64,000 nt of DNA from Syntrophorhabdaceae bacterium (GCA_963666485.2 CAXXUO010000001.1:128001-192000); one strand, 5' to 3'; counted from the stretch's first letter, positions 191 to 59,570 are shown. The notes: a model not told the origin generated them from the sequence alone. Numbers and translations are program-made.

Positions 191-262
191 TTCTTGCCCA
201 TTGCCTGTCGTTTTGTTAGAATCGCGGAAGACGGAAACTTCCTGACACCAGCGGGGGTGAAA

Positions 263-33028: not shown

Positions 33029-33898
33029 ATGAAGAACGGCAGTTATTTTATCCCGCGTGAGCAGATCAAGGCGTTCATGAACCCCGGTGCGATGAATAAC
33101 GAGGAGGGCCTCTATATTCTGTGGGAAACCGATCCCGAGGCTGCGCGGCGCGTATTGCCGCCCATGCTCGATCTCATCGATCCCGACCATGCCATCGCCA
33201 TGGTGTACGTTGTCAACATCCGCGAACCCACCTTCGCGCCGTGGTATATGGAGGGGGGCATCTGCCTGTTATGCCGGTATGGCGAGAAGGGGGGCGCCTA
33301 TTTCCTGAACCTTCAGCTCTCCGGCCCGGGTGCGCCGTCGGGCCTCACCAGCGGGCGGGAATTATCCGGCCTTCCCAAGAAGCTATGCGAGCGCATCGTC
33401 GTCGAGCGCAATGATAAGTGGGCCCACGCACTCATCGAGAGCAAGGGCCGGCGGATCTTCTCCGTCGAGGTTGAGATCGGGGCATATAACGACCCGGTCA
33501 TGGAATACATGTACCAGAACGCGGGGCCGGGCCGGCAGGACAGGGGCACGTGCATGCTGTTCCAGTATGACTCCGCGCAAGCTCCCGACGGCCAGATCGC
33601 CTTCCCCCGGGTCCGGCTCGTCAATTATGACAGCGTCACCGACTATCAATCGTGGGAGCCGGCTACCATTACATCCCTCGAGATGGAACCGTCCCTCGAC
33701 AACCCCTGGGCGGAGATGGCGGTGGTAAAGCCCCTGGGTGCGGCATACAGCGTCAATTCCAACTGGGTGGCAGGGGTCACGCCCCTGGCCGAATTCGAGG
33801 GCGATGAGGCAGACAACTTGATCTCATACCTCTTCTCGGGCCGGTGGGACCGTTCCACCCTCACCACGAGCCACACCCAGCGGTATGGACAATTTTAA
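33029..33898 (+). CDS. Acetoacetate decarboxylase family protein
   Basis: WETDPEAARRVLPP, YMEGG and GRELSGLPKKL (Schiff-base Lys region). Confidence 0.8.
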   Translation: MKNGSYFIPREQIKAFMNPGAMNNEEGLYILWETDPEAARRVLPPMLDLIDPDHAIAMVYVVNIREPTFAPWYMEGGICLLCRYGEKGGAYFLNLQLSGPGAPSGLTSGRELSGLPKKLCERIVVERNDKWAHALIESKGRRIFSVEVEIGAYNDPVMEYMYQNAGPGRQDRGTCMLFQYDSAQAPDGQIAFPRVRLVNYDSVTDYQSWEPATITSLEMEPSLDNPWAEMAVVKPLGAAYSVNSNWVAGVTPLAEFEGDEADNLISYLFSGRWDRSTLTTSHTQRYGQF

Positions 33899-41190: not shown

Positions 41191-44100
41191 CTATCTGTCC
41201 AGCAGCTCGCGGACGGTACGGGATATGAGGGGTATGTCGAAAGGCTTCTGAATGAACCCGTCGCATCCCTTGTTCATGATCTGCTGGGCCTGCCCGTCAA
41301 GACTATAGCCGCTGCTCAAAATGATCTTTGCCCGGGGATCGATCTCTTTGATCCGGTCGAAGGTTTCATTTCCCGAAAATCCCGGCATGATCATGTCGAC
41401 GATCACGAGCGATATCGAGCCTTTCATCTCCCGGTAGAGGGCGACCGCTTCGGCCCCGCCTTTTGCACCGTGCACGGTGTAGCCAAGTGCCTCGAGGACC
41501 TCCCTGCTTACCCTGAGGACGTCCGGCTCGTCATCGACAACGAGGATGGTCTCCTTTCCTCTCATGATGCCTCCGATCTCCGGGGCCTCTTCTGCGGGGT
41601 CCTTCGTTGATGCAGGGAAATAAAGGACGAATGTCGTGCCCCTTTCCGGCTCGCTGGCGACGTCGATATAGCCGTTATGGTTCTTCACGATGCCGTACAC
41701 CATTGCCAGGCCAAGGCCCGTACCCCGGCGGAGCTCCTTCGTAGTAAAAAAGGGCTCGAATATCCTCGCGCGGACCTTTTCGTCCATACCGACCCCGGTA
41801 TCACTGACGGACACCCGTACATACCGGCCGGGCACCATCGGATAGGCGGCTGCATTAGGTTCGCTGACGGTGATATTTCGTGTCTCGAGAGACAGGTCGC
41901 CGCCTTCAGGCATGGCCTGCCAGGCGTTGAGGTAAAGATTGAGAAGGACCTGTTCTATCTGTCCCCGGTCGGCCTCGACAGTCCAGACGTCCTTCTCATA
42001 TTTGCACTGGATCGCGACCTCTTTCTTCGTTCGACCGAACATTGCCGCGGTCTTTTCTATAAGCTCGTTGAGATTGACCGGTCTGGTCACATATTTCCCT
42101 CCCCGGGCAAAACCCAGCAACTGCCCGGTCAGTTCTGCGGCACTTTTTACCTGTTCCTCTATCCTTTTGAGTCGTTCTCGCTGCGGATCATCGGGGTCCA
42201 TGTCAAGCATTACAAGCGAGGCGTATCCCTGGATACCCATGAGAATGTTATTGAAATCGTGGGCTATGCCGCCCGACAGGGTGCCGATCGCCTCCATCTT
42301 CTGCGCGTTGACAAGCTGGGTTTCCAGTCTTTTCCGCTCGGTGATATCCTCGCACACCATGATCTTGTCCGCACCTTTGAGGAACACGGTAGTGAAACTG
42401 ATCGTCTTTACCGAACCATCCTTGCATGCAACATTAAAGATCCTGTGCGTCTGCTCCCCGTGAGACTTATCAGCAGTATCGGTCTTCCACGTCCTGACGA
42501 CCTCGCGCCTCGCTGCGTCGTCAGGATATGCCTTCCTGAACCATGTTCTCCCGTCGGGAACATCATCAAGGCCGTAGCCAAAGATCTCCTTGAACTTGGG
42601 GTTGATATAGAGGAACTGTCCGACCGGGTCTATAAGCGCCATCGCGAACGGGGCGTTCTCGGAAAGGAACCGCAGCTTTTCCTTCTCGTTGAAAAGTGCA
42701 TCCTCGACACGTTTGCGCTCACTTATATCACGGGCCTCCGGAATGAGCATTGTTACCCTGCCGTCGGAGCCAAAGACCGGTTTCAGCGAAAAGTCGAACA
42801 TGACCAAAGCGTTTCCCGCTCCCTGTAATTCGACCTCGTAACGTACGAACTCCCCTCCTGCTGCACGGGCGATAGCCTCCTTCAGACGCTGCACCCGGGC
42901 CTCGTTTCCCCGCCACCACCGGGTTTCCCAGAAGGGTTTGCCGATCATCTCCTCTTTTGCGGCACCAATAAAATCGAGGGCTGTCTGGTTCGCCTCCATC
43001 AACACACCGTCCGGGGTCATCATTCCGGTGAACTGGAAAGATGAATTGAAGATGGCCCGAAAACGATTTTCGCTTTCCCGGAGGGCCTCTTCCGCCCGCC
43101 GGCGGTCCGTCATGTCACGGATAGATTCAATTGCCCCGACGATATTTCCCTGGGCATCGTACAGCGGGGATGCCTTGCCCGCGAGTACTCTGTTCTGCCC
43201 CCGGACATAAGGGACCGCCGTTTCCGTGAACAGCGTATCGCCTTCTTTGTTAATGAAGGAATATTGCTTTTCGATATCTTCATTCCATGCCGTGACGAAG
43301 TCAACCAATATGGGCCGCCGCGTTCCGTAAAAGGGGATCGCGTATTCATAATTGCCTTTACCGATCATTTTTTCAGCGGGACAGTCCGTCATTTCCTCGA
43401 TAGCCTTGTTCCACGCTATTACTTTTCCCTCGCGATCAACGGCCAGAATGGGGTCGGGAAGGAAATTGATGATATCCGAGAACCGCTGCTGCGATTCAAG
43501 CAGGACCTCCTCCTCCGCTTTGCGCTTCGTTTCTTCCTGAACGATCTTCCAGGCCTTCATTCCATAATACACTACGATTGTACCGCTCAGGCAAAGCACC
43601 GCGATAAGGACAAGGAGCCTGTTCCTGAAGTCCCTTAAGGATGCAAGGATCTCATCTTCCGAAGACGCGACAACTATAGACCAGAAGGTATTGCCTATTT
43701 TAATGGGCATATACACGGCGTGTTTTTGTACTTTTTTCACCGACTGGCCCATGATCATGTCAAAGTAGTATGTGGCGATCCCTTGCCTGCCCTTGACCAT
43801 CTCCTTCGCCATTTCGATTATGGTGGGGAAATCCTTGCAGTTCTCAAAGACAGATTTCCCGACATGCCCCGGAACGGGGCAGTAGAGTTCGATTCCCGCC
43901 TGGCTTGTTATCCAGGCATAACCGGTCTGTCCGATCCTGATATGCTCGAGGTATTTTTTCGACAAAGCCTTGAAATCGACAAGGATCCCCAGAGAACCAT
44001 CATATGCGTCCCCGCGAAAAACCGGTACATGCAGAGCTATGGCTTCGAAACCCTGGATGGTTAAAAAAACATCGCTGATAACGGGTTTATGGGTGCTCAT

Positions 44101-44490
44101 GACCTCCCTGACATGTCCCTGGCGGGAGATATCGGAACCGATAGATCCTTTCGCGTAAGGGAATGTATGCATAATCCTTCCCCGTGCATCGACGCGTGTG
44201 ATCGCCCTGACATCGTCTTTATGGGTAGCCAGCAAAAGTTCCATGTGCCTCTTGCCCTCGTCGCTGAGGGTTATGATCTCTCTATCTTTGGCGAAGTATG
44301 CCAGCCTGGATGTCCATTGATCGAAAAAAACCTCGATCTCCTTGGCTGCGTACCGGGCGTGAAGTCTCTGGCGCGCATTGAGATCTTCGATGGCGGAATT
44401 CTTCGCACCCTCGTAAAAGGCGACAAAAAGATACCCGCAGAAACATAGGAGTATAAAGAGGAGAAGCAGAAGGTACTTATAACGCATCAT
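41191..44490 (-). CDS. Hybrid sensor histidine kinase (TM-Cache-TM, 3 PAS, HisKA, HATPase, REC)
   Basis: GGIAHDFNN, EQVLLNLYLNA, DTGVGM, FFTTK..GTGLGL, ILVVDDE, DMIMP and FIQKP motifs. Confidence 0.95.
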   Translation of the reverse strand: MMRYKYLLLLLFILLCFCGYLFVAFYEGAKNSAIEDLNARQRLHARYAAKEIEVFFDQWTSRLAYFAKDREIITLSDEGKRHMELLLATHKDDVRAITRVDARGRIMHTFPYAKGSIGSDISRQGHVREVMSTHKPVISDVFLTIQGFEAIALHVPVFRGDAYDGSLGILVDFKALSKKYLEHIRIGQTGYAWITSQAGIELYCPVPGHVGKSVFENCKDFPTIIEMAKEMVKGRQGIATYYFDMIMGQSVKKVQKHAVYMPIKIGNTFWSIVVASSEDEILASLRDFRNRLLVLIAVLCLSGTIVVYYGMKAWKIVQEETKRKAEEEVLLESQQRFSDIINFLPDPILAVDREGKVIAWNKAIEEMTDCPAEKMIGKGNYEYAIPFYGTRRPILVDFVTAWNEDIEKQYSFINKEGDTLFTETAVPYVRGQNRVLAGKASPLYDAQGNIVGAIESIRDMTDRRRAEEALRESENRFRAIFNSSFQFTGMMTPDGVLMEANQTALDFIGAAKEEMIGKPFWETRWWRGNEARVQRLKEAIARAAGGEFVRYEVELQGAGNALVMFDFSLKPVFGSDGRVTMLIPEARDISERKRVEDALFNEKEKLRFLSENAPFAMALIDPVGQFLYINPKFKEIFGYGLDDVPDGRTWFRKAYPDDAARREVVRTWKTDTADKSHGEQTHRIFNVACKDGSVKTISFTTVFLKGADKIMVCEDITERKRLETQLVNAQKMEAIGTLSGGIAHDFNNILMGIQGYASLVMLDMDPDDPQRERLKRIEEQVKSAAELTGQLLGFARGGKYVTRPVNLNELIEKTAAMFGRTKKEVAIQCKYEKDVWTVEADRGQIEQVLLNLYLNAWQAMPEGGDLSLETRNITVSEPNAAAYPMVPGRYVRVSVSDTGVGMDEKVRARIFEPFFTTKELRRGTGLGLAMVYGIVKNHNGYIDVASEPERGTTFVLYFPASTKDPAEEAPEIGGIMRGKETILVVDDEPDVLRVSREVLEALGYTVHGAKGGAEAVALYREMKGSISLVIVDMIMPGFSGNETFDRIKEIDPRAKIILSSGYSLDGQAQQIMNKGCDGFIQKPFDIPLISRTVRELLDR

Positions 44491-47416: not shown

Positions 47417-48245
47417 TCATACGCCCGGTTTGTCCCGGTACCTGTGGATCACCGTGCCGCCCATTATGGTCATGCCGACCTGAAAGAAATAACCTTTCAC
47501 TGGCTTAATAGCGCCCAGGTCCGTCAATTCTTCAAAGTCTGAAGGAAAGAAACGGATATCCGCATCGCCCTCCCAGGCGTCACCGATCTTTGCATTCGTA
47601 ACATTGCTGATGAGAAGGTCGTGCACAAGGGGCTTTTCCTGGTCTTCATAATCCGGGAAATGGCGCATGAGGTAGAACTTGAACGGGGGGACTTTGTTCG
47701 GGGGAACCTGTTTTTTCAAGGTCAGGGAACCCTCGACGATCCTCTCTTCGTGGGACACGCATATGCCCTTTATTTTTGCACCGGTCTTTTTGCCGCCCGT
47801 GACGGGCATCAATTCATGGAGCTTTGTGATATGGGACCCTGCCGAGTTTTTTGGGAAACCCCTGGATAAAGCCCCTTAAGAGAGTGAAATCATTATCCAC
47901 CCAGATGTACGGCACATAGTAGCCGGGAACGCCTTTGAACTGGCAGCCGACCATGATAATGCATTCATGATACAACGACCTCTCGGGATTGACAGAGGCA
48001 AGATCGGGATTCGCATCGCTCGCGGAGACCCATTCAACGAACCAGACCACCCCTTCGCCGGGGTTGGGGCCCGGTTCAAGGGGAGGTGGCAATAACGCCC
48101 TCAATTTTTTCTCGTTTGCCTTGAAGACGAGGTGCATGACATCCCCGCCGTAGTGCCACGGGGGCGCGTCAATGACAGGCGCTTTTCCTTTGGGGGACAG
48201 GGGCAGAATATAGCCTTTGAGCGGAAAAGATCTTTTCGTTGCCAT
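47417..48245 (-). pseudogene. Acetoacetate decarboxylase family gene split by a +1 frameshift near 47833-47835
   Basis: Removing one base of GGG joins ...QGFPKKLGRV to HITKLHELMPVTGG... giving one protein of about 275 aa. Confidence 0.8.
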
Positions 48246-48496
48246 AGCTTTCCTCCTGGAGATCCAGCTTAAAATGATTGTCCCACTGATCATCCGCATT
48301 GTCAATGAGCCGGGACTCGAAACCGATTCCCGGGAAAACGGGCATCATGCCGGAATAAGGATGTGGTAACGGTCGCGATGAAGATATGAGAGATCAGCCT
48401 TTCAGGAACTTTGTTTTTCCCTAAGTGACCGATCGTTGTAACGTTGAAAACAGCCTGATATACTTGCTGTATACATTAAAAGCGGAGGCGGTGCCT

Positions 48497-50908: not shown

Positions 50909-51358
50909 TCATTTTGTCAGGAGCACCGGACATTTGGAGCCCTTAAGGACATTTCTGGCCACGCTGCCCATAAAATATTTCGCAATACCCGATGCCCCGA
51001 GCGATGCGATCACGATCAGGTCGATCTTTTGTTCAACTCCCTCTTTCAATATTTCATCGTAGGGTATCCCCCATCGGACACGCGTAACCACCTCAACTTC
51101 TGTGGACTGAGAAAATTTGCCAAGCTGTTCTTTTAAGCTTTGCTCGGCCCAATCGGTAGCACGGTCCCTGATCTCGTGCCGTGCCGCCTCTTCGAGAAAG
51201 GCAAATTCCAGGCCGGCACGATAAATATCCTCGTGGATAACGTGAAGGAGAAAAAGCTTCGCCTTGTACTGTGCCGCTATATCCAAAGCCTGCGCCAATG
51301 CCCTGTCCGAATCCTCTGAAAAATCAGTGGGCACCAGGACCTTCGTTGGTTTCAGCAT
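50909..51358 (-). CDS. Universal stress protein
   Basis: VLVPTDFS, DLIVIASLG and GSVARNVL..CPVL motifs. Confidence 0.92.
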   Translation of the reverse strand: MLKPTKVLVPTDFSEDSDRALAQALDIAAQYKAKLFLLHVIHEDIYRAGLEFAFLEEAARHEIRDRATDWAEQSLKEQLGKFSQSTEVEVVTRVRWGIPYDEILKEGVEQKIDLIVIASLGASGIAKYFMGSVARNVLKGSKCPVLLTK

Positions 51359-51494
51359 GCCCCGCCTCCTTGCATATATTCCGTTCTATTACAATTATAG
51401 CAGCGCCCGGTCCATCCGGGTGAAAAGATGAGTGCGTCCGGATGAATGCATTATATGAGGTTTATACCTATAGTTTAACCGTATCTTCCCTGTA

Positions 51495-51523
51495 TTGTCA
51501 CAACTCGTATGAGATGCTACAAC
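51495..51523 (+). promoter_or_regulatory. Putative sigma70 promoter of the acp operon
   Basis: TTGTCA, 17-nt spacer, TACAAC with TG extension. Confidence 0.45.
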
Positions 51524-51585
51524 GATGTGTAACATGTCATTACCCACGTAAAGATTTCAGTAATTTCAAAAGGAGGTTCAGTACA

Positions 51586-51858
51586 ATGCCAACGGTATCA
51601 CTGCTAGAAGAAATAACACAGATAATCGTCAACCAGTTAGGTGTCGACAAAACCGCGATAGTGCCCGAGGCAAAATTCATCGACGACCTCGGGGCAGACT
51701 CCCTCGATATCGTCGAGCTTTTGATGGCGCTCGAAGACGAGTACGGAATTGAGGTCCCGGATGAAGATGCAGAGGGTATGCAGACAGTCGGGGACATTGT
51801 CCGCTATATCGAAGAGCGCGTGAACGGATACCGTCAACAAGGAGAAGCGGGATGCTGA
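51586..51858 (+). CDS. acpP: Acyl carrier protein
   Basis: [33 protein letters not shown] (phosphopantetheine Ser). Confidence 0.93.
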
Positions 51859-52661
51859 ACAACGTCAACGCTTATTTAATGGAGAACCCGGACGAGGAAG
51901 TGCGCCTCGAATGGAAAACAGACCCGGAGACCATGCAAAGGCAGGCAACCTGGTGCGGAATAAAACCCGGCATGAGGGTCCTCGATGCTGGCTGCGGGAC
52001 CGGCAAGACCTCGAAGCTCCTTTATGATATGGTCCAGCCCGGCGGGGAGGTCGTAGGAATAGACCTCTCGGAAAAGAGAATTGCCTGCGCCAGGGAAAAT
52101 TACCAGGGAGAACGGCTCTCATTTCAGGTGTGCGACCTCACAAAACCCCTGGCCCGCATAGGTAAATTCGACGCGATCTGGGTCCGCTTTGTCCTCGAAT
52201 ATTTCCTTAAAGAAAGCCGCTTGATCGTGCAAAACCTCAGTGAGTGCCTGTCTGCGGGCGGGTACCTCTGTCTTCTCGATCTCGATCATAACTGCCTGAG
52301 TCATTACGGTCTTTCGACTGAGATGGAAGCAACCCTTGCAAAGCTCATGAGGGCCACGGAAAAATTGAATTTTGACCCCTATTGCGGCCGCAAGCTTTAC
52401 TCGTACCTTTACGATATCGGCCTTCATGACATAACCTCGGACCTCATGGCGCACCATCTCATTTACGGAAAATTAAGGGATGTGGATGCCTTCAACTGGG
52501 CGATAAAACTGTACGTCACCGGCAAAAAAACGGAGAAGGTTTTTGAAGGATACCCGGGCGGCTTCACATCTTTTTTCTCGGATTTTCAGACCTTCTTTGC
52601 CGATCCCCGGCGGTTCACGTATACACCGCTCATCATGTGCAAGGGCAGGGCTGCAGCGTAA
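51852..52661 (+). CDS. Class I SAM-dependent methyltransferase
   Basis: [20 protein letters not shown] and LSAGG motifs; overlaps the ACP stop. Confidence 0.9.
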
Positions 52662-52687
52662 GGAACTACGAACAGGGAGGAAAGATA

Positions 52688-54784
52688 ATGGTTAGGGACA
52701 GCAGTGCGAATGTACGGCTTATAGAACCCGGGGAGGCCTTTGAAAAGGACCATTTTCCGCCCCCGCGTTTCATACAGGGCATTACCCCGGATCTTTTCGA
52801 AACCGCACAAAAAGTTGAGATCGAAAAGATCATCAATGACCTGAACTACATTCATTTCCGCGGCGGCAACATAGCGATAAGCCTCACACACCCCGGGCAC
52901 AGGGGCAGCATTCTTTTGAGCGCACGGCCACAGCCCTCCCTGGACGCCAATCTCGTCTGTCTGTGGCAGACCGATGTCCGAAATATGAAACTTGGATCGT
53001 ACACATTCGAATGGCTCTTCGTGAATGACGGCGATTCTTTCATGCTCGTTCCCTGCGAAATGACCGCGATGAACGAGAAATTCATATCAATGCGTATCAC
53101 CGGTAAAGGTTTGCTGCTGGAACGCAGAAAGACGAGACGCTGCCCCGGAAACCGGGTAGACGTGGAATTGGCTCAGAATGGTTTCGTGGCACGGGGTGTT
53201 CTCCTGGATTTCAGTACGAAAGGTTTCCGGATACGCGTTGAACTTGATCGCTCTTATCCGTTCAACTGGCTTAACCCTGACGACTACTGCCGGGTAAACC
53301 TGATGAACGGCACGGGGATGATACTCACGTGCACCTGCACGGTCATACGACAGAGCGAAGCTGTTAGGTCGAGGGAAATTGTGGTCTGGCCTGACATGCG
53401 GTCCATCAACAGATTCCCCAAAAAAGAGGTCAGGCCTGAGCGGCACCATTTAAACCCTTCACCGAAAATAAGCTTTGAGCATCCGCTGTCAGGAACGACG
53501 GTCCAGAGAGCGGTCGCCGATATTTCCTATTCCGGATTGGCAGTTCATGAGCCTTCGGAAAATGCCGTCCTTCTTCCGGGCATGATGATTCCCGCGCTTA
53601 TGATCAATTTCCCCGGCGGGCTTAAACTAAAATGCGTGGCGCAGGTCGTCTCCTGCCGGGACATAGATGGGAATATCGTCAGGTGCGGGCTTGCCTTCCT
53701 CGATATGGACGTATCGGCGTACGGCCGCCTCACACAATTGATAAGCAGCATTGAAGACCCCTGCAATAATATTTCAGGTGACCTGGACCTCGACGCACTC
53801 TGGGAATTCTTCTTTCACACGAACTTCATGTATCCGAAAAAATATAAACTGGTGAAATCCTACATCGATACATTTAAAACGATCTATACGAAGCTTTACC
53901 GGGACACCCCGGAGATCGCGGTCCATTACGCGTACGAAAAAGACGGAAGGGTCCTGGCGCATTTATCTATGTTAAGGAGCTATGACAGTGCGTGGATGCT
54001 GCACCATCATGCGGCCAGGGTAACGAGCCGCAGGACGGGCATCGGCATTCTCAAACTCATGGTCAATTACGTAAATGGCTTATACAGGCTGCCGACACCC
54101 CGCATGCGCTATGTTATGTGCTACTTCCGCCCGGACAATCACTTCCCCGACATGGTCTACGGAAAGTTCGCACGGGAACATAACGATCCCCGCGGATGTT
54201 CGCTCGACCTGTTCGCTTACGCAACGTTCAAGATCGCGGCACCCCAAGGCCTTCCCGGCGGGTGGGACGTCAGAAGGTCGACCCCTGAGGATATCCGGGA
54301 CCTCGAAACGTTCTACCGGGCGGCTTCAGGATTCTCTTCCCCGGAAGGAGGCGGCCTGTTGGTAGACGCTCTTGGCCTGCGTGAACCCGGCGCCAACGAT
54401 GCCGTGATGGCGTTGTACCACTCATTGGGGTTCGAACGGAACATTTGCCTTTATTCACTCTATCGTGAAGACGAGCTGAAAGCGGTGTTCATCGTCAACC
54501 AGGCGGACCTTGGAATGAACCTTTCAGAACTGCTCAATTCGGTCAAGGTGGTGGTTTTAGATCGGGAGGGCGTCTCCTGGGAGACGATCTCGGCGGCCAT
54601 AAACCGGTTCGCCGGCTCTTATCACCTGGACACCATACCCGTGATGGTATACCCGTTCGAATACGCTGAAAAGAACGGGGTCCCGTATGAAAAGCAGTAC
54701 TATCTCTGGATACTTGACCTGTACAGGAGTGCAGACCCCTATCTCCATTACCTGGAAAACAGGTTGAAGGTAAAGTTCGGATAA
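52688..54784 (+). CDS. PilZ-domain protein (two PilZ) with C-terminal tandem GNAT-like region
   Basis: GGAGG RBS; ERRKTRR...DFSTKG and RPERH...DISYSG PilZ motifs; RRTGIG and VRRSTPEDIRDL GNAT-like motifs. Confidence 0.75.
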   Translation: MVRDSSANVRLIEPGEAFEKDHFPPPRFIQGITPDLFETAQKVEIEKIINDLNYIHFRGGNIAISLTHPGHRGSILLSARPQPSLDANLVCLWQTDVRNMKLGSYTFEWLFVNDGDSFMLVPCEMTAMNEKFISMRITGKGLLLERRKTRRCPGNRVDVELAQNGFVARGVLLDFSTKGFRIRVELDRSYPFNWLNPDDYCRVNLMNGTGMILTCTCTVIRQSEAVRSREIVVWPDMRSINRFPKKEVRPERHHLNPSPKISFEHPLSGTTVQRAVADISYSGLAVHEPSENAVLLPGMMIPALMINFPGGLKLKCVAQVVSCRDIDGNIVRCGLAFLDMDVSAYGRLTQLISSIEDPCNNISGDLDLDALWEFFFHTNFMYPKKYKLVKSYIDTFKTIYTKLYRDTPEIAVHYAYEKDGRVLAHLSMLRSYDSAWMLHHHAARVTSRRTGIGILKLMVNYVNGLYRLPTPRMRYVMCYFRPDNHFPDMVYGKFAREHNDPRGCSLDLFAYATFKIAAPQGLPGGWDVRRSTPEDIRDLETFYRAASGFSSPEGGGLLVDALGLREPGANDAVMALYHSLGFERNICLYSLYREDELKAVFIVNQADLGMNLSELLNSVKVVVLDREGVSWETISAAINRFAGSYHLDTIPVMVYPFEYAEKNGVPYEKQYYLWILDLYRSADPYLHYLENRLKVKFG

Positions 54785-54803
54785 AAGGAAAAGGTGGAGC
54801 GTC

Positions 54804-55748
54804 ATGTATATCAACCTGGCTTCACACTATGTGCCCGCGACAACCATTCGCAACGACCGCTACGAATGCCTGTCGGGGCTCACGGACGACTGGATCCGCA
54901 AAAGATCGGGAATACGGTCACGCGCGAGGGCCTGCTGTCACGAAAATACAAATACTATGGGGGTGGAAGCGTGCAGGCGCGCCTATGAGCACATCCCCTA
55001 CCCGATCGTGGATGTCGATCTCATCGTCGGAGCCACATATACCCCGTACGATACCATTGCCACTCTTGCCCACGCTGTCCAGCATTTCCTTGAAGTGCCG
55101 AAAGCCCGGGTGATCTCGATCTCGTCGGCATGTTCCTCCTTCATAAATGCCCTCGAGGTCGTTGAGGGATATTTCGCGTCAGGCAAGGCACATAAAGCCC
55201 TTGTCGTCGCCTCGGAACACAACAGTGCCTACAGCGAGGACACCGATACACAGTGCGGCCATCTGTGGGGAGACGGGGCGGGAGCTGCCTTTATCTCGAA
55301 GGAAAGAGTTTCCGATGAAGACATACAAATACTGGATATAAACACAACGGGACTTGGCCACCTCGGCAAGGCTATGGACGCCATTCACCTCAGGCCGGGC
55401 AACGGCGGCCTCACGATGCCGGCCGGCAGGGACATATTTGTGAACGCGGTCAGATACATGGTTGCAGAAGTTAAGGAAATTTTGGAGAAAAACCAGTATA
55501 ATACACAAGACATAGCACACCTCATCCCCCACCAGGCGAATCTCAGGATCATTGCCCAGGTCGGTGAAATGCTGGGAATGCACAACGGCAGGGTGATCAC
55601 GAATGTGGAGGACACGGGGAATACAGGCTGTGCGAGCACGATAATCGCGCTGTCGCAAAATTGGGAACGCTTCGCGAAAGACGAGCTTATAGCGGTAACC
55701 GTTTTTGGCGGCGGATATTCAAGCGGTGCAATGCTTTTAAAGAAATAA
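54804..55748 (+). CDS. fabH: Beta-ketoacyl-ACP synthase III family protein
   Basis: SACSSF (Cys), LWGDGAGA, PHQAN (His), GNTGCAS (Asn), FGGG. Confidence 0.9.
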   Translation: MYINLASHYVPATTIRNDRYECLSGLTDDWIRKRSGIRSRARACCHENTNTMGVEACRRAYEHIPYPIVDVDLIVGATYTPYDTIATLAHAVQHFLEVPKARVISISSACSSFINALEVVEGYFASGKAHKALVVASEHNSAYSEDTDTQCGHLWGDGAGAAFISKERVSDEDIQILDINTTGLGHLGKAMDAIHLRPGNGGLTMPAGRDIFVNAVRYMVAEVKEILEKNQYNTQDIAHLIPHQANLRIIAQVGEMLGMHNGRVITNVEDTGNTGCASTIIALSQNWERFAKDELIAVTVFGGGYSSGAMLLKK

Positions 55749-55760
55749 TGAGGATACCTA

Positions 55761-56888
55761 ATGAACAGTACATTACATGAGGCAGGTACCCGGACAGAGT
55801 TGCCGCCCTTGATCATCAAGGGAAAAAAGATACCTGTACCTATCATCCAGGGCGGTATGGGGGTTGGCGTGTCCCTCTCGCCCCTTGCCGGCGCCGTAGC
55901 GCAGGAAGGGGCCGTGGGCATTGTATCGAGCGCCGCCCTTGATCGCGTCATATCAAAAAGAAATGGAAAAAAATGCTCGGCGTACGAAGCAGCATACGAA
56001 GAAATTTCGCTGTCTAAGGAAAAAGGCGGGTTTGCGGGGATCAATATCATGGTCGCCCTGCTGCAGACCTACGATGCAACGGTGGAGGGCGCGATAGATG
56101 CCGGGGCGGATTTTATTATATCAGGCGCCGGCCTTCCTATGAAGCTGCCGCTCATTAAAAAACCGGGAGAAACCGCGCTCATCCCCATAGTATCTTCAGC
56201 ACGGGCGCTCGAGCTGATATGCAAGAAATGGGAGCGTGCAGGGTACAGGCCGGACGCGGTCGTTCTTGAAGGACCGCTGGCGGGAGGGCATCTAGGGTTT
56301 AAATTCGAGGAACTGTACCTCGAATCGAACAGACTTGAAAATCTTTTCCCGCCGGTCAAGGACATGGCCGAAAAATACGGAGGATTCCCCGTCATAGTCG
56401 CCGGCGGCATCTACGATCATTCCGATATCGTGAAGTTTCTCAAAATGGGCGCCGACGGGGTACAGATGGGAACACGTTTCCTGGTCGCCCGGGAATCGAG
56501 TGCCACCGACGCATATAAACAGGCGGTGATCGATGCAGGCAAGGAAGATATCGTTGTCGCACATAATCCCGGCTCTCCCAGTGGTTTGCCTTTCATGGTG
56601 ATCAAAGAATCGGGCATGTACCAGGATGCCCTCGCCAGAAAAAGAAAGCCCCTGTGCAACAAGGGGTACATGCTGCGGCCGGACCGTGACGGTGTTTTCA
56701 ATCAGTGCGACAGCCGGTTGGAGACCGGCAACAGTTTTTGCATCTGCAACGGCCTTCTCAGTTCGGCAGGTTACAATCCTGACCGGGAGAAACCGCTTTA
56801 TACGGTCGGCGCGAACGGCTACCGGATCGACAGGCTCACATCGGTAAAAGAACTCATGGCGGAACTGACAGGGAACAAAGTAGGATAA
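55761..56888 (+). CDS. Nitronate-monooxygenase-family flavoprotein (FabX/FabK-like)
   Basis: IIQGGMGVG, SGAGLP, EGPLAGGH, AGGI and VQMGTRF motifs; four C-terminal Cys; GANGYRID. Confidence 0.85.
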   Translation: MNSTLHEAGTRTELPPLIIKGKKIPVPIIQGGMGVGVSLSPLAGAVAQEGAVGIVSSAALDRVISKRNGKKCSAYEAAYEEISLSKEKGGFAGINIMVALLQTYDATVEGAIDAGADFIISGAGLPMKLPLIKKPGETALIPIVSSARALELICKKWERAGYRPDAVVLEGPLAGGHLGFKFEELYLESNRLENLFPPVKDMAEKYGGFPVIVAGGIYDHSDIVKFLKMGADGVQMGTRFLVARESSATDAYKQAVIDAGKEDIVVAHNPGSPSGLPFMVIKESGMYQDALARKRKPLCNKGYMLRPDRDGVFNQCDSRLETGNSFCICNGLLSSAGYNPDREKPLYTVGANGYRIDRLTSVKELMAELTGNKVG

Positions 56889-58601: not shown

Positions 58602-58892
58602 ATATTGGTCCCCTAAAATGCCAGTTATGTCAATTGTGAATTTTTTGTGAGTTACGGTGTTAATTGGTTATTTATTGTTTATCATAGTGACAATATTTCT
58701 GTCAAATAATCGGGCGCAACGGCAGCAAGGTTTCTAAGACCTCCACCTGTCGTCTGGATAGAATCTACATGATCTCATTCTTATAGTATTGTATGGGCAT
58801 ATGTTTGGGCCTGATAAAAATGGGAAGAGGTACGAATGCCGGGGTAGGAAAGGAGGGACTGAAAGGTTGTGCAAACTTTCAGGCAACAGGAC

Positions 58893-59570
58893 ATGACAAA
58901 ACTGAATGAAAAAGCGTGGCTCAGCCTGGCGGCACTCGCAGTGTTCATGGGTCTGCTGCTCTTTATTCCCGCATGGAGCATCCGCTACTGGCATGCATGG
59001 ATCTATATAGTCGTGTTCATGGGAACATCAAGCGTGATCACGGTGTACCTGATGCGGCACGAACCGGAGCTTCTCGAACGACGCATGAAGGGCGGACCGA
59101 CCGCAGAACAAAGGCCGGTTCAAAAGTTTATCATGCTCTGGACATCGATCGGGTTCATTTCTCTGCTCGTAGTACCCGCGCTCGATCATCGCTTCAAGTG
59201 GTCTTCCGTGCCGGTTATGTTCGTAGTGCCGGGCGATCTCCTGGTGGTAATCGGATTCTATTTCATTTTTCGCGTCTACAGAGAGAATCCGTATTCATCC
59301 GCAACGATAGAGATAGTCGAAGGGCAAAAGCTCGTTTCGACAGGGCCGTATGCTGTCGTTCGCCATCCCATGTATGCAAGTGCTCTATTGTACCTCATTG
59401 GCACACCGCTTGCCCTTGGTTCGTACTGGGGATTCATCGGGCTTGTATTCATGCTGCCGTTCCTGCTCTGGCGTCTTCTTGACGAAGAACGTTTTCTTTC
59501 GCTAAACCTGCCAGGATATGAGGAATACCGGAAGCGGGTGCGGTATCGTCTCGTACCTTTTCTATGGTAG
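58893..59570 (+). CDS. Isoprenylcysteine carboxylmethyltransferase (ICMT/PEMT) family membrane protein
   Basis: QKLVSTGPYAVVRHPMY, DEERFL and YRLVPFLW motifs. Confidence 0.9.
   Translation: MTKLNEKAWLSLAALAVFMGLLLFIPAWSIRYWHAWIYIVVFMGTSSVITVYLMRHEPELLERRMKGGPTAEQRPVQKFIMLWTSIGFISLLVVPALDHRFKWSSVPVMFVVPGDLLVVIGFYFIFRVYRENPYSSATIEIVEGQKLVSTGPYAVVRHPMYASALLYLIGTPLALGSYWGFIGLVFMLPFLLWRLLDEERFLSLNLPGYEEYRKRVRYRLVPFLW

What the first reader, a model, noticed from the sequence alone, without database searches (positions are those of the whole stretch)
51586..56888. Candidate new system: ACP - methyltransferase - PilZ2/GNAT2 - FabH - FabX-like operon (c-di-GMP-gated acyl-lipid or signal synthesis)
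Seen: five tightly packed co-directional genes behind their own promoter, with ACP and the methyltransferase overlapping. The usual fab neighbours (plsX, fabD, fabG, fabF) are absent, so this looks like an accessory pathway. Known: FabH primes acyl chains on ACP; FabX/FabK-type flavoproteins change their saturation; GNAT-fold enzymes (LuxI, FeeM, OlsB) transfer acyl-ACP to amines; Ralstonia PhcB is a SAM methyltransferase that makes fatty acid methyl ester signals; PilZ binds c-di-GMP. Inference: the operon builds a dedicated acyl chain, transfers it and methylates it under direct c-di-GMP control. I know of no characterised pathway with this layout.
Basis: partly seen in the sequence, partly recalled or inferred. 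Interest (0 to 1): 0.85.

Follow-up and report, generated by a model that had tools for sequence, protein, structure and literature searches.

The report
c-di-GMP acyltransferase operon with fatty-acid genes
Five tightly packed genes join a likely c-di-GMP-sensing double-acyltransferase and a methyltransferase to three fatty-acid-synthesis genes; this layout occurs only in one small bacterial lineage, while the central protein belongs to a large unstudied family that normally partners a sensor kinase.

Summary
Window 51586-56888 carries five co-directional genes with gaps of -7, 26, 19 and 12 nt:
- an AcpP-type ACP;
- a class I SAM methyltransferase (MT);
- a 698-aa protein with three beta-barrels (two PilZ) and a double GNAT fold seen only by structure;
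- a KAS III (FabH-family) enzyme with its Cys-His-Asn triad;
- a full-length relative of H. pylori FabX.

Among 80 genomic loci that encode the PilZ-GNAT protein, the five-gene set recurs only in L001, the closest relative (80% identity).

Elsewhere the conserved partners are different. A PAS hybrid histidine kinase is the next gene in 35 of 48 loci with enough flank, often overlapping. The MT is nearby in 25 of 48.

The sister lineage L002 places PilZ-GNAT and MT beside a different lipid set: an acyl-CoA dehydrogenase, FabA, and a KAS-ACP-reductase operon. So within this three-genome clade the module sits next to enzymes of the cis-double-bond step of fatty-acid synthesis.

Best reading: a c-di-GMP-gated acyltransferase/methyltransferase module, recruited here to ACP-bound acyl chains. 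Precedents exist (PixB; PilZ-fused N-acyl-tyrosine synthases). No product, c-di-GMP binding or promoter is shown.

The parts
51359..51585 (.). 227-bp gap between the divergent universal-stress-protein gene (50909-51358, -) and the ACP gene. It is the presumed promoter region. The ribosome-binding site AAGGAGG lies at 51570-51576.
   Evidence: Sequence read. No + strand sigma-70 consensus hit. No Rfam match.
51586..51858 (+). Acyl carrier protein, 90 aa, AcpP type, with a 12-residue C-terminal extension.
   Evidence: PF00550 57.9 bits. NF002148 114.3 bits (cutoff 71) and TIGR00517 106.4 bits (cutoff 70.45). DSL serine at residue 39.
51852..52661 (+). Class I SAM-dependent methyltransferase, 269 aa, of the small-molecule type. 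It overlaps the ACP gene by 7 nt.
   Evidence: Methyltransf_31/11/25 Pfam hits. No NCBIfam model reaches its cutoff. 2725 unnamed homologues, the best 120 at 57% identity or more. AF2 model pLDDT 86.9. Closest folds are 3mgg (TMq 0.71), LahSB, AtmM/RebM, PMTs, JHAMT and trans-aconitate MT. Present near PilZ-GNAT homologues in 28 of 74 loci.
52688..54784 (+). 698-aa PilZ - double-GNAT protein: three beta-barrels followed by a tandem GNAT fold.
   Evidence: PF07238. 90 full-length homologues. 528 of 585 pattern matches in species-representative genomes encode a relative. Model pLDDT 84.7. Fold matches.
52805..53125 (+). N-terminal beta-barrel (residues about 40-146), in the position of the YcgR N-terminal domain.
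   Evidence: Strand pattern of the model. YcgR 5y6f, MrkH 5ejl and PlzA 7mie matches. N50, N53, F57 and P81 are each kept in 83 of 85 members.
53126..53407 (+). PilZ barrel 1 (residues 147-240), with a canonical RxxxR motif.
   Evidence: R147 and R151 are each kept in 84 of 85 family members. D174 in 74, S176 in 54 (N in 24), G179 in 53 of 85.
53432..53755 (+). PilZ barrel 2 (residues 249-356), with a variant RxxR motif and a conserved DxSxxG.
   Evidence: R249 in 83 and R252 in 84 of 85. D278 in 75 (N in 8), S280 in 82, G283 in 85 of 85. Best Pfam PilZ stretch is residues 258-352.
53771..54781 (+). Double (tandem) GNAT-fold domain, residues 362-698.
   Evidence: Foldseek matches: VipF, GlmA, MAB_4324, the clavulanic-acid tandem GNAT, MshD, NMT and Eis. 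No Pfam GNAT hit in 26 of 26 members. K/R448-x-x-G451 motif, with G451 and H440 in 85 of 85 and N611 in 85 of 85. 625 cluster representatives at E<=1e-3; 121 of the best 150 are 640-740 aa with the domain C-terminal.
54804..55748 (+). KAS III (FabH-family) ketosynthase, 314 aa. It does not reach the canonical FabH cutoffs.
   Evidence: PF08541 and PF08545. NF006829 235.8 bits (below cutoff 249) and TIGR00747 203.6 bits (below 292.1). C110, H243 and N273. Best PDB match is 2ebd, E 2.3e-41. The best 120 relatives are 62-87% identical; source names include Syntrophorhabdus, Syntrophus and Syntrophobacterales.
55761..56888 (+). FabX-family FMN protein, 375 aa, with four C-terminal cysteines.
   Evidence: PF03060 158 bits. 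FabK model 101.6 bits (below cutoff 453.1). 7e1q (H. pylori FabX) E 2.4e-65, aligned over residues 12-370; the GGH histidine is kept (His177) and R164 is kept, while T130 is replaced by Met. Cys 299, 316, 327 and 329 compared with C300/304/308/320 in FabX.
41191..44490 (-). dCache-PAS hybrid histidine kinase, 1099 aa. It belongs to the kinase family that directly follows PilZ-GNAT genes in other genomes. It lies outside the finding and is a possible partner.
   Evidence: Pfam domains. 50-52% identity over about 510 aa to cluster c1 kinases, against a c1-to-c1 median of 47%.

Best explanation
The region is a real, probably co-transcribed five-gene operon. It is a clade-specific fusion of two units.

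Unit 1 is a conserved module of Thermodesulfobacteriota. It consists of a class I SAM methyltransferase and a 698-aa protein. In that protein a YcgR-like N-terminal sensor (one beta-barrel plus two PilZ barrels) precedes a double GNAT acyltransferase.

Unit 2 is an accessory acyl-ACP set. It consists of an AcpP-type carrier, a KAS III primer enzyme, and a FabX-type FMN/Fe-S dehydrogenase-isomerase of the kind that makes the cis double bond of anaerobic unsaturated-fatty-acid synthesis.

Most likely mechanism (inferred):
1. KAS III primes chains on the carrier, and housekeeping FAS extends them.
2. The FabX-like enzyme desaturates them.
3. The double GNAT transfers an acyl group from ACP or CoA to an amine acceptor.
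4. The MT methylates the product or the acceptor.

In most other genomes the same module is wired to a PAS hybrid histidine kinase instead. The family as a whole is therefore a signalling-coupled acyltransferase, not a dedicated lipid pathway.

Shown here: gene order, folds, motif conservation and synteny statistics. Inferred: co-transcription, c-di-GMP binding, donor, acceptor and product.
For: - Gene calls and tight spacing.
- Tandem-GNAT and YcgR/MrkH-like folds in a confident model.
- RxxxR kept in 84 of 85 family members; the second-barrel motif DxSxxG kept in 75 to 85 of 85.
- The GNAT half keeps invariant residues, including a K/R-x-x-G motif at the usual CoA-pyrophosphate position.
- The FabX relationship is full length, with the catalytic His and four Cys. 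The KAS III triad is intact.
- The MT stays near PilZ-GNAT through several rearrangements: convergent, divergent or co-directional. It is present in 28 of 74 loci, and in 25 of 48 with enough flank.
- The window, L001 and L002 form one clade (SH-aLRT 100). All three place the module beside ACP-dependent lipid genes that are not orthologous between the two branches: FabX/KAS III/ACP against ACAD + FabA equivalog + KAS I/II-ACP-SDR-hot-dog.
- Contig-length coincidences suggest the FabH-type gene shares a 13,454-bp metagenome contig with a PilZ-GNAT homologue, and a 10,501-bp contig with an MT homologue. This is weak evidence.
- c-di-GMP turnover enzymes lie within 8 kb in 5 of 80 loci: REC-HD-GYP in 4 and REC-PAS-GGDEF plus REC-PAS-HD-GYP in L051.
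- Precedents: PixB (two PilZ domains plus a GNAT) binds c-di-GMP (PMC8316039, passages). Nas354/Nas343 (FeeM-type synthase plus PilZ) make N-myristoyl-tyrosine (PMC4897644, passages).
Against: - The five-gene set is seen in only 1 of 80 loci, L001. 76 of 80 loci show no ACP, KAS, FabA or FabX-type gene within the stored flanks.
- The family's dominant partner is a hybrid kinase: next gene in 37 of 74 loci, with overlapping ORFs in 14 of those 37. Some members are fused to a NERD-Ser/Thr kinase. Both points favour protein-level signalling.
- The GNAT half matches no acyl-ACP-using family (FeeM/NAS, Acetyltransf_5) by sequence. Its fold neighbours are mostly acetyl-CoA enzymes.
- KAS III relatives at 62-70% identity are widespread, yet an orthologue lies beside only 1 of the 80 PilZ-GNAT loci. 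The lipid genes may therefore be an older unit that the pair merely joined.
- PilZ barrel 2 has RxxR, not RxxxR. Barrel 1 has a weak DxSxxG.
- No promoter, terminator or riboswitch was detected.
- There is no diguanylate cyclase or phosphodiesterase among the window ORFs scanned.
- There is no product evidence of any kind.
Confidence: 0.45

Rival explanations
1. The PilZ-GNAT protein is a PixB-like regulatory acetyltransferase. c-di-GMP switches it to acetylate or acylate a protein target in a two-component pathway, and the MT is a second modifier. The ACP, KAS III and FabX genes are only co-transcribed neighbours or, at most, regulated targets. No special lipid or signal is made.
For: - A hybrid kinase is the next gene in 35 of 48 loci with enough flank, and often overlaps.
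- A kinase of the same family lies 8 kb away in the window.
- NERD-Ser/Thr-kinase fusions exist.
- REC-HD-GYP and GGDEF neighbours occur.
- The fold neighbours include the protein acetyltransferases VipF and Eis.
- PixB works through its acetyltransferase domain upstream of a chemosensory pathway.
Against: - The MT has a small-molecule or peptide type fold, not a CheR or protein-glutamate type.
- Two sister lineages independently place the pair among acyl-ACP genes.
- Spacers of 12 to 26 nt, and the ACP/MT overlap, argue for co-expression with the lipid genes.
Confidence: 0.3
2. There is no functional coupling. ACP, KAS III and FabX form an ordinary accessory or housekeeping unsaturated-fatty-acid unit of this lineage. 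A mobile or rearranged MT/PilZ-GNAT pair landed between the genes.
For: - The layout is restricted to the window and L001 among 81 loci compared.
- The KAS III is far better conserved across orders (62-70% identity) than the PilZ-GNAT protein (36-44%).
- The ACP scores as a normal AcpP equivalog.
Against: - An insertion that keeps four short spacers and a 7-nt coding overlap, and that persists at 80% protein identity in L001, is unlikely to be neutral.
- The sister lineage shows the same functional theme with different genes.
- The KAS III falls below the FabH cutoffs, so it is probably not the housekeeping primer enzyme.
Confidence: 0.15
3. The MT, GNAT, ACP and KAS III act as a free-standing version of the polyketide MT-GNAT-ACP loading module (CurA, AprA, GphF and SxtA type; recalled from memory). 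The MT would C-methylate malonyl-ACP, the GNAT would decarboxylate it, and KAS III would use the branched or odd starter.
For: The gene set ACP + MT + GNAT + ketosynthase matches the parts list of such modules. This rests on recalled knowledge, not on any tool result. Two conserved His residues in the GNAT half (H425 in 81 and H440 in 85 of 85) could serve in decarboxylation.
Against: - None of the MT's sequence matches to solved structures listed at the thresholds used, nor its best 50 fold matches, carries the name of such a loading-module methyltransferase. These modules are recalled from memory and their PDB entries were not looked up.
- The GNAT here is a double domain, whereas the loading-module GNATs are single.
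- Most family members have no ACP or ketosynthase nearby.
Confidence: 0.05

Closest known systems
PixB of Myxococcus xanthus (MXAN_2604). PMC8316039; abstract and passages read.
   Same: Both have two PilZ domains followed by a C-terminal GNAT acetyltransferase. PixB binds c-di-GMP in vitro. Its transferase domain is the output, and it acts in a signalling pathway.
   Different: PixB has a single GNAT that sequence models recognise. The window protein has a double GNAT that no Pfam model sees, plus an extra N-terminal barrel. PixB's RxxxR arginines are at 121 and 331, against 147 and 249 here. PixB works with the Frz chemosensory system, whereas this family pairs with a PAS hybrid kinase and an MT. 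Sequence homology to PixB was not tested, because no PixB sequence was available to the tools.
Nas354 and Nas343, metagenomic N-acyl-tyrosine synthases with a PilZ domain. PMC4897644; passages read.
   Same: Both fuse a GNAT-like acyltransferase fold to a PilZ domain. For Nas354/Nas343 the authors take host acyl-ACPs to be the acyl donors and propose c-di-GMP control of N-acylation.
   Different: The domain order is reversed (synthase N-terminal, PilZ C-terminal). Nas354/Nas343 have a single FeeM-type domain with a catalytic Glu, and the authors say the genes are not in a biosynthetic operon. The window protein does not match FeeM or Acetyltransf_5 models. PilZ-FeeM fusion clusters appear only as a weak Atlas lead (score 0.82).
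FabX of Helicobacter pylori. PDB 7E1Q-7E1S; PMC8626469; passages read.
   Same: The match is full length (E 2.4e-65). Both have an FMN TIM barrel, the catalytic His (H182 in FabX, His177 here), the ACP-contact Arg164, and four cysteines in the C-terminal subdomain.
   Different: Cysteine spacing is C-x16-C-x10-C-x-C here, against C-x3-C-x3-C-x11-C in FabX. T130 is replaced by Met. The enzyme's activity and substrate chain length are untested. FabX acts in bulk membrane-lipid synthesis, not in a c-di-GMP operon.
Canonical FabH (E. coli 1hn9, Aquifex 2ebd)
   Same: Same fold, same Cys-His-Asn triad, same length.
   Different: It scores below both NCBIfam FabH cutoffs. NCBI names an orthologue only '3-oxoacyl-ACP synthase III family protein'. 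A true FabH, by contrast, scores 429.9 bits in L048.
Fatty-acid-derived signal systems paired with a sensor kinase: Ralstonia PhcB/PhcS (methyl-ester signal) and Xanthomonas RpfF/RpfC/RpfG (DSF). Recalled from memory, not from a call.
   Same: The parts lists are similar across the family: a SAM methyltransferase, a hybrid kinase, REC-HD-GYP regulators, and crotonase neighbours in 11 loci.
   Different: No sequence comparison with PhcB or RpfF was possible. The crotonase neighbour scores as a generic EchA-like hydratase below its cutoff. The resemblance is one of layout only.

Membership tests
PilZ c-di-GMP receptor domain | Pfam PF07238 match above the gathering score | tested here: met
   52.8 bits against 22.5, in 2 stretches. 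25 of 26 family members match.
PilZ c-di-GMP receptor domain | RxxxR motif before the barrel | tested here: met
   Barrel 1: R147 and R151 are each kept in 84 of 85 members. Barrel 2 has RxxR instead (R249 in 83, R252 in 84 of 85).
PilZ c-di-GMP receptor domain | (D/N)xSxxG motif | tested here: met
   Barrel 2: D278 in 75 (N in 8), S280 in 82, G283 in 85 of 85. Barrel 1 is weaker: D in 74, S in 54, G in 53 of 85.
PilZ c-di-GMP receptor domain | Binds c-di-GMP | not testable with these tools
   Needs DRaCALA or ITC with purified protein.
GNAT acyltransferase superfamily (tandem type) | GNAT fold, duplicated | tested here: met
   Foldseek matches: VipF 1.4e-9, GlmA 1.5e-8, MAB_4324 2.5e-8, tandem GNAT 2wpw 6.4e-7, MshD 1.0e-5, using a model of pLDDT 84.7.
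GNAT acyltransferase superfamily (tandem type) | Sequence match to a curated GNAT family | tested here: not met
   0 of 26 members match any acetyltransferase Pfam at E<=1. The family profile finds no GNAT chain in the PDB.
GNAT acyltransferase superfamily (tandem type) | Q/R-x-x-G-x-G/A acyl-CoA pyrophosphate motif | tested here: inconclusive
   K/R448 (K in 36, R in 29), G451 in 85 of 85, but the last position is variable (M, V or G).
PixB-type c-di-GMP effector | Two PilZ domains followed by a C-terminal GNAT | tested here: met
   PixB architecture taken.
PixB-type c-di-GMP effector | Sequence homology to PixB | not tested
   No PixB sequence could be fetched.
FeeM/NAS, OlsB or LuxI-type acyl-ACP N-acyltransferases | Match to PF21926, PF13444 or a related model | tested here: not met
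   No such hit in 26 members. There is only an Atlas lead at 0.82 to PilZ-FeeM fusion clusters.
FabX (acyl-ACP dehydrogenase/isomerase) | Full-length similarity to H. pylori FabX rather than FabK | tested here: met
   7e1q E 2.4e-65 against FabK 2z6i 1.4e-16. The FabK model scores 101.6 bits, below its cutoff of 453.1.
FabX (acyl-ACP dehydrogenase/isomerase) | Catalytic His182 | tested here: met
   The GGH motif aligns, giving His177.
FabX (acyl-ACP dehydrogenase/isomerase) | Four Cys holding a [4Fe-4S] cluster (C300, C304, C308, C320) | tested here: inconclusive
   Four Cys are present (299, 316, 327, 329), but with different spacing. The L024 homologue keeps the CX3CX3C pattern.
FabH (KAS III) | Cys-His-Asn triad and both KAS III Pfam domains | tested here: met
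   C110, H243, N273. PF08545 and PF08541.
FabH (KAS III) | Score above the curated FabH cutoffs | tested here: not met
   235.8 bits (below 249) and 203.6 bits (below 292.1).
AcpP acyl carrier protein | Equivalog score and DSL serine | tested here: met
   TIGR00517 106.4 bits against a cutoff of 70.45. Ser39.
PKS MT-GNAT-ACP loading module | MT related to the loading-module C-methyltransferases | tested here: inconclusive
   No match named as a loading-module methyltransferase among the sequence matches listed or the best 50 fold matches. The family and its members are recalled from memory and their PDB entries were not looked up, so absence from these partial lists is not decisive.

The most novel reading that the evidence does not exclude
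The PilZ - double-GNAT protein and its methyltransferase are the synthase of a previously unknown fatty-acyl-derived signal or lipid. One candidate is an unsaturated N-acyl amino acid or its methyl ester. It would be made from ACP-bound chains only when c-di-GMP is bound. The PAS hybrid kinase that follows the gene in most genomes would be its cognate sensor. Together these would form a c-di-GMP-gated, quorum-sensing-like circuit widespread in syntrophic and sulfate-reducing Thermodesulfobacteriota. The window's operon would be the variant that carries its own acyl-chain supply.
Probability: 0.15. Interest if true: 0.85.

Novelty: new variant of a known kind. Interest (0 to 1): 0.6.

Why it matters
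c-di-GMP effectors with enzymatic outputs are few. Only PixB and two PilZ-fused N-acyl-tyrosine synthases turned up in the literature searches.

This double-GNAT family is large. It has 625 cluster representatives at E<=1e-3 and at least 528 loci in species-representative genomes. It is invisible to Pfam GNAT models and carries no functional name in any source seen.

If the clade-specific link to FabX, FabA and ACP genes is functional, it would connect c-di-GMP signalling to anaerobic unsaturated-fatty-acid or acyl-signal chemistry. The organisms concerned are syntrophs and sulfate reducers, where neither process is understood.

The window operon is a compact, expressible test case. The kinase-coupled majority gives a second handle on the same protein.

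Tried and rejected
- Complex prediction of the full-length PilZ-GNAT protein with the MT gave no support, so no conclusion is drawn either way.
- The Rfam scan of the whole window at gathering scores, and of 51000-52000 at E<=1, found nothing. There is no c-di-GMP riboswitch.
- The promoter/terminator consensus scan was no richer than the shuffles. It found no + strand site upstream of the ACP gene and no clean terminator after the FabX-like gene.
- A family-profile search against PDB sequences found no GNAT, and a Pfam scan of 26 members at E<=1 found none. Only the fold comparison worked.
- The Atlas search on the GNAT half found only unnamed clusters. The 'named' search gave the protein's own family plus PilZ-FeeM fusion clusters at 0.82, which is a lead only.
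- The PKS loading-module idea was considered and not supported on the MT side.
- The acyl-CoA dehydrogenase next to PilZ-GNAT in L002 was tested for orthology with the dehydrogenase seen in 15 other loci. It is only 29-32% identical, so they are treated as different genes.
- The PixB paper's main text names neither the two downstream genes nor any kinase or methyltransferase. Its supplementary Figure S2 was not seen.
- The searches 'FabX' + 'Desulfo' and 'c-di-GMP' + 'unsaturated fatty acid' + 'FabA' + 'PilZ' returned no paper.
The neighbourhoods of KAS III, FabX and ACP orthologues therefore stayed unchecked.

Full report
**What is there**

Window 51586-56888 carries five + strand genes.
- The first opens at ATG 51586, nine bases after AAGGAGG. 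It encodes a 90-aa carrier protein that scores as a normal AcpP (TIGR00517 106.4 bits, cutoff 70.45). Its phosphopantetheine serine is in DSL at residue 39.
- The second (51852-52661) overlaps it by 7 nt. It is a class I SAM methyltransferase with only generic family matches.
- The third is best started at ATG 52688, which has an AAGGAGG upstream and gives 698 aa, the length seen in homologues. It ends at 54784.
- The fourth (54804-55748) is a KAS III enzyme. The fifth (55761-56888) is an NMO/FabK-superfamily flavoprotein.
- Spacers are 26, 19 and 12 nt.
- A divergent universal-stress-protein gene and a convergent glyoxalase-family gene bound the set.
- No other fatty-acid-synthesis domain was found in the 51 other window ORFs scanned. 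There is no second copy of the ACP, KAS III or FabX-like gene in the window.
- A promoter could not be shown. The consensus scan has no + strand hit in the 227-bp upstream gap and is no richer than shuffles. Rfam finds nothing.

**The central protein**

Pfam sees only PilZ (52.8 bits, two stretches) and NCBIfam sees nothing.

An AlphaFold2 model built on 26 homologues is confident (pLDDT 84.7, pTM 0.79). Foldseek against the PDB splits it in two.
- Residues about 40-356 match YcgR, MrkH, PlzA and VCA0042. This region is a first beta-barrel followed by two PilZ barrels.
- Residues 362-698 match tandem-GNAT enzymes: VipF E 1.4e-9, glucosamine N-acetyltransferase, MAB_4324, the clavulanic-acid tandem GNAT, MshD, N-myristoyltransferases and Eis.

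None of 26 members matches a GNAT Pfam at E<=1, and the family profile matches no GNAT chain in the PDB.

Motif conservation across 85 full-length members:
- Barrel 1 has RxxxR in 84 of 85, but a weaker DxSxxG (D in 74, S in 54, G in 53).
- Barrel 2 has an RxxR variant (83 to 84 of 85) and a strong DxSxxG (D in 75, S in 82, G in 85).
- The GNAT half keeps many invariant residues. These include H440, G451 inside a K/R-x-x-G motif at the usual CoA-binding position, and N611.

c-di-GMP binding and catalysis are therefore plausible but not shown.

**The lipid genes**

The last gene aligns over residues 12-370 with PDB 7e1q (E 2.4e-65), far better than with FabK structures (1.4e-16). Passages of PMC8626469 confirm that 7E1Q-7E1S are H. 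pylori FabX. They also name H182 as the catalytic histidine and C300/C304/C308/C320 as the [4Fe-4S] ligands. The window protein keeps the GGH histidine (His177) and Arg164. It has four C-terminal cysteines, but with another spacing (299, 316, 327, 329).

The KAS III has its Cys110-His243-Asn273 triad but falls just below both curated FabH cutoffs. The best 120 relatives listed are 62-87% identical. Their source names include Syntrophorhabdus, Syntrophus and Syntrophobacterales, and NCBI names one only a 'KAS III family protein'. It is thus a conserved accessory ketosynthase rather than the canonical FabH.

**Family and synteny**

The PilZ-GNAT protein has 90 full-length homologues in the first search, none with a functional name.

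Of these, 528 encode a relative, and the best 80 loci were kept.

With the GNAT half alone, 625 cluster representatives match at E<=1e-3 and 241 at 1e-30. Of the best 150, 121 are 640-740 aa with the domain at the C-terminus. Twenty-seven of the best 150 whose lengths fall outside 640-740 aa were scanned with Pfam. Two of them are NERD - Ser/Thr kinase - double-GNAT fusions (one also scores weakly for PilZ), nine others match PilZ, and 16 match no family.

tblastn of the window's proteins against the 80 loci finds:
- the ACP only in L001;
- the KAS III in L001 (85% identity) and weakly in L048 (32%; a canonical FabH, 429.9 bits);
- the FabX-like protein in L001 (90%) and in L024 (39%, opposite strand).

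L001 repeats the whole five-gene order.

I called ORFs with a simple longest-ORF rule and clustered them. In 6 of the 80 loci the PilZ-GNAT ORF was not called into the cluster, and these were dropped from the counts.

Results for the remaining 74 loci:
- A PAS-HisKA-HATPase-REC hybrid kinase (Pfam) is the next gene on the same strand in 37. It is present somewhere in 44.
- The methyltransferase is present in 28.
- Among the 48 loci with at least 3 kb downstream, these numbers are 35, 41 and 25.
- In 14 of the 37 adjacent pairs the ORFs overlap. ORF starts are heuristic.

The MT sits convergent, divergent or co-directional in different loci. It has therefore stayed close through several rearrangements.

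c-di-GMP enzymes lie within 8 kb in 5 of 80 loci.

In the window, a 1099-aa dCache-PAS hybrid kinase at 41191-44490 (- strand) is 50-52% identical over about 510 aa to these kinases. The family's internal median is 47%.

**The sister lineage**

A maximum-likelihood tree of 73 full-length members (quick IQ-TREE search, midpoint root for drawing only) puts the window with L001 (SH-aLRT 100). It places L002 as their sister (SH-aLRT 100). Kinase-adjacent loci are found in every other major clade.

L002 reads, on the + strand: kinase, kinase, PilZ-GNAT, acyl-CoA dehydrogenase, a FabA equivalog (NF003509 201.5 bits, cutoff 124), MT.

A tightly overlapping convergent set follows: KAS I/II, nitroreductase-family protein, ACP, SDR and a hot-dog protein.

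None of these is orthologous to the window's lipid genes.

FabX and FabA are the two known enzymes that make the cis-3-decenoyl-ACP branch point of anaerobic unsaturated-fatty-acid synthesis. The FabX role comes; the FabA role comes from the NCBIfam name and established knowledge. Finding one or the other beside the same MT/PilZ-GNAT pair in sister lineages is the strongest argument that this subclade works with ACP-bound acyl chains. This is my inference.

**The methyltransferase**

Its family is large and unnamed. There are 2725 hits, and the best 120 are at least 57% identical.

The model (pLDDT 86.9) is closest to an uncharacterised Methanosarcina enzyme (3mgg, TMq 0.71). Next come small-molecule or peptide methyltransferases acting on carboxyl, hydroxyl or amine groups: LahSB, AtmM/RebM, TleD, phosphoethanolamine N-methyltransferases, juvenile-hormone-acid MT and trans-aconitate MT (sequence level).

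This fits a small-molecule substrate but does not name it.

**Comparison with the literature**

Three searches for a PilZ-acyltransferase link returned two relevant systems.
- PixB of M. xanthus has two PilZ domains and a GNAT. It binds c-di-GMP, and its transferase domain is required for function (PMC8316039; abstract and passages).
[quoted passage not shown] They make N-myristoyl-tyrosine in E. coli, and c-di-GMP control was proposed but untested (PMC4897644; passages).

The idea of a PilZ-gated acyltransferase is therefore in print. This double-GNAT family, its kinase and MT partners and the ACP/KAS III/FabX operon are not, as far as reach.

**Verdict**

- The five-gene layout is a clade-specific variant: the window, L001, and probably two metagenome contigs judged only by matching contig lengths.
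- The conserved entity is the MT plus PilZ-double-GNAT module, usually coupled to a hybrid kinase.
- I favour a c-di-GMP-gated acyl transfer that, in this clade, draws on ACP-bound (unsaturated) chains (0.45).
- The alternatives are a purely regulatory PixB-like protein acetyltransferase (0.30), chance juxtaposition (0.15) and a loading-module-like starter factory (0.05).

**Still open**
- a housekeeping acpP/fabH elsewhere in the genome;
- the neighbourhoods of KAS III and FabX orthologues;
- homology to PixB;
- all biochemistry.

Noticed in passing
window 41191-44490 (-): A 1099-aa dCache-PAS-HisKA-HATPase-REC hybrid kinase. It is as similar to the kinases that directly follow PilZ-GNAT genes elsewhere (50-52% over about 510 aa) as those kinases are to each other (median 47%). 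It may be the displaced partner.
   Followed up: partly
L002 7730-14686: The sister lineage carries an acyl-CoA dehydrogenase and a FabA equivalog between PilZ-GNAT and the MT. A convergent, overlapping set follows: KAS I/II, nitroreductase-family protein, ACP, SDR and hot-dog protein. This looks like a small type II FAS-like cluster of unknown product.
   Followed up: partly
proteins P0419 and P0439: Proteins of about 1210 aa in which a NERD domain and a Ser/Thr protein kinase precede the double GNAT domain found. PilZ scores weakly in P0439 only (21.2 bits, below the 22.5 cutoff). This is a second hint of a protein-signalling role.
   Followed up: no
L025 14472-15605 and 6 other loci (cluster c14): An enolase-superfamily enzyme of the muconate-lactonising subgroup follows the kinase in 7 loci. 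It resembles OSBS, N-acylamino-acid racemase and Ala-Glu epimerase, but is below all cutoffs. This would fit an N-acyl amino acid product. It remains unexplained.
   Followed up: partly
L054 6510-7316 (-) and 10 other loci (cluster c7); cluster c3 in 15 loci: Crotonase-family and acyl-CoA-dehydrogenase genes recur just upstream of PilZ-GNAT genes. This could be inherited gene order in genomes rich in beta-oxidation genes, rather than a functional link.
   Followed up: partly
window 47417-47812 and 47814-48305 (-): Two adjacent ORFs match the C-terminal and N-terminal halves of acetoacetate decarboxylase (profile positions 119-237 and 3-116). They are in different frames. This is a frameshifted gene or a sequencing error. 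An intact copy lies at 33029-33898.
   Followed up: partly
window 58869-59570 (+): A membrane methyltransferase of the phospholipid/isoprenylcysteine methyltransferase family (PF04191) lies 2 kb downstream of the operon, beyond two opposite-strand genes.
   Followed up: no
L051 4431-7354 (-): REC-PAS-GGDEF and REC-PAS-HD-GYP genes sit directly upstream of a PilZ-GNAT gene. REC-HD-GYP genes follow the kinase in L024, L065, L067 and L078.
   Followed up: partly
window 194-2905 (+): A 903-aa TPR-CHAT protein lies at the window's start. A CHAT protein also lies near a PilZ-GNAT gene in L055. This is probably coincidence.
   Followed up: no
Atlas clusters: Clusters of 445-536-aa proteins combine FeeM (PF21926), Acetyltransf_5 and PilZ. 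They have 212 and 82 members, commonest in Bdellovibrionota and Spirochaetota. PilZ-fused N-acyl-amino-acid synthases therefore seem widespread beyond the two published examples.
   Followed up: no
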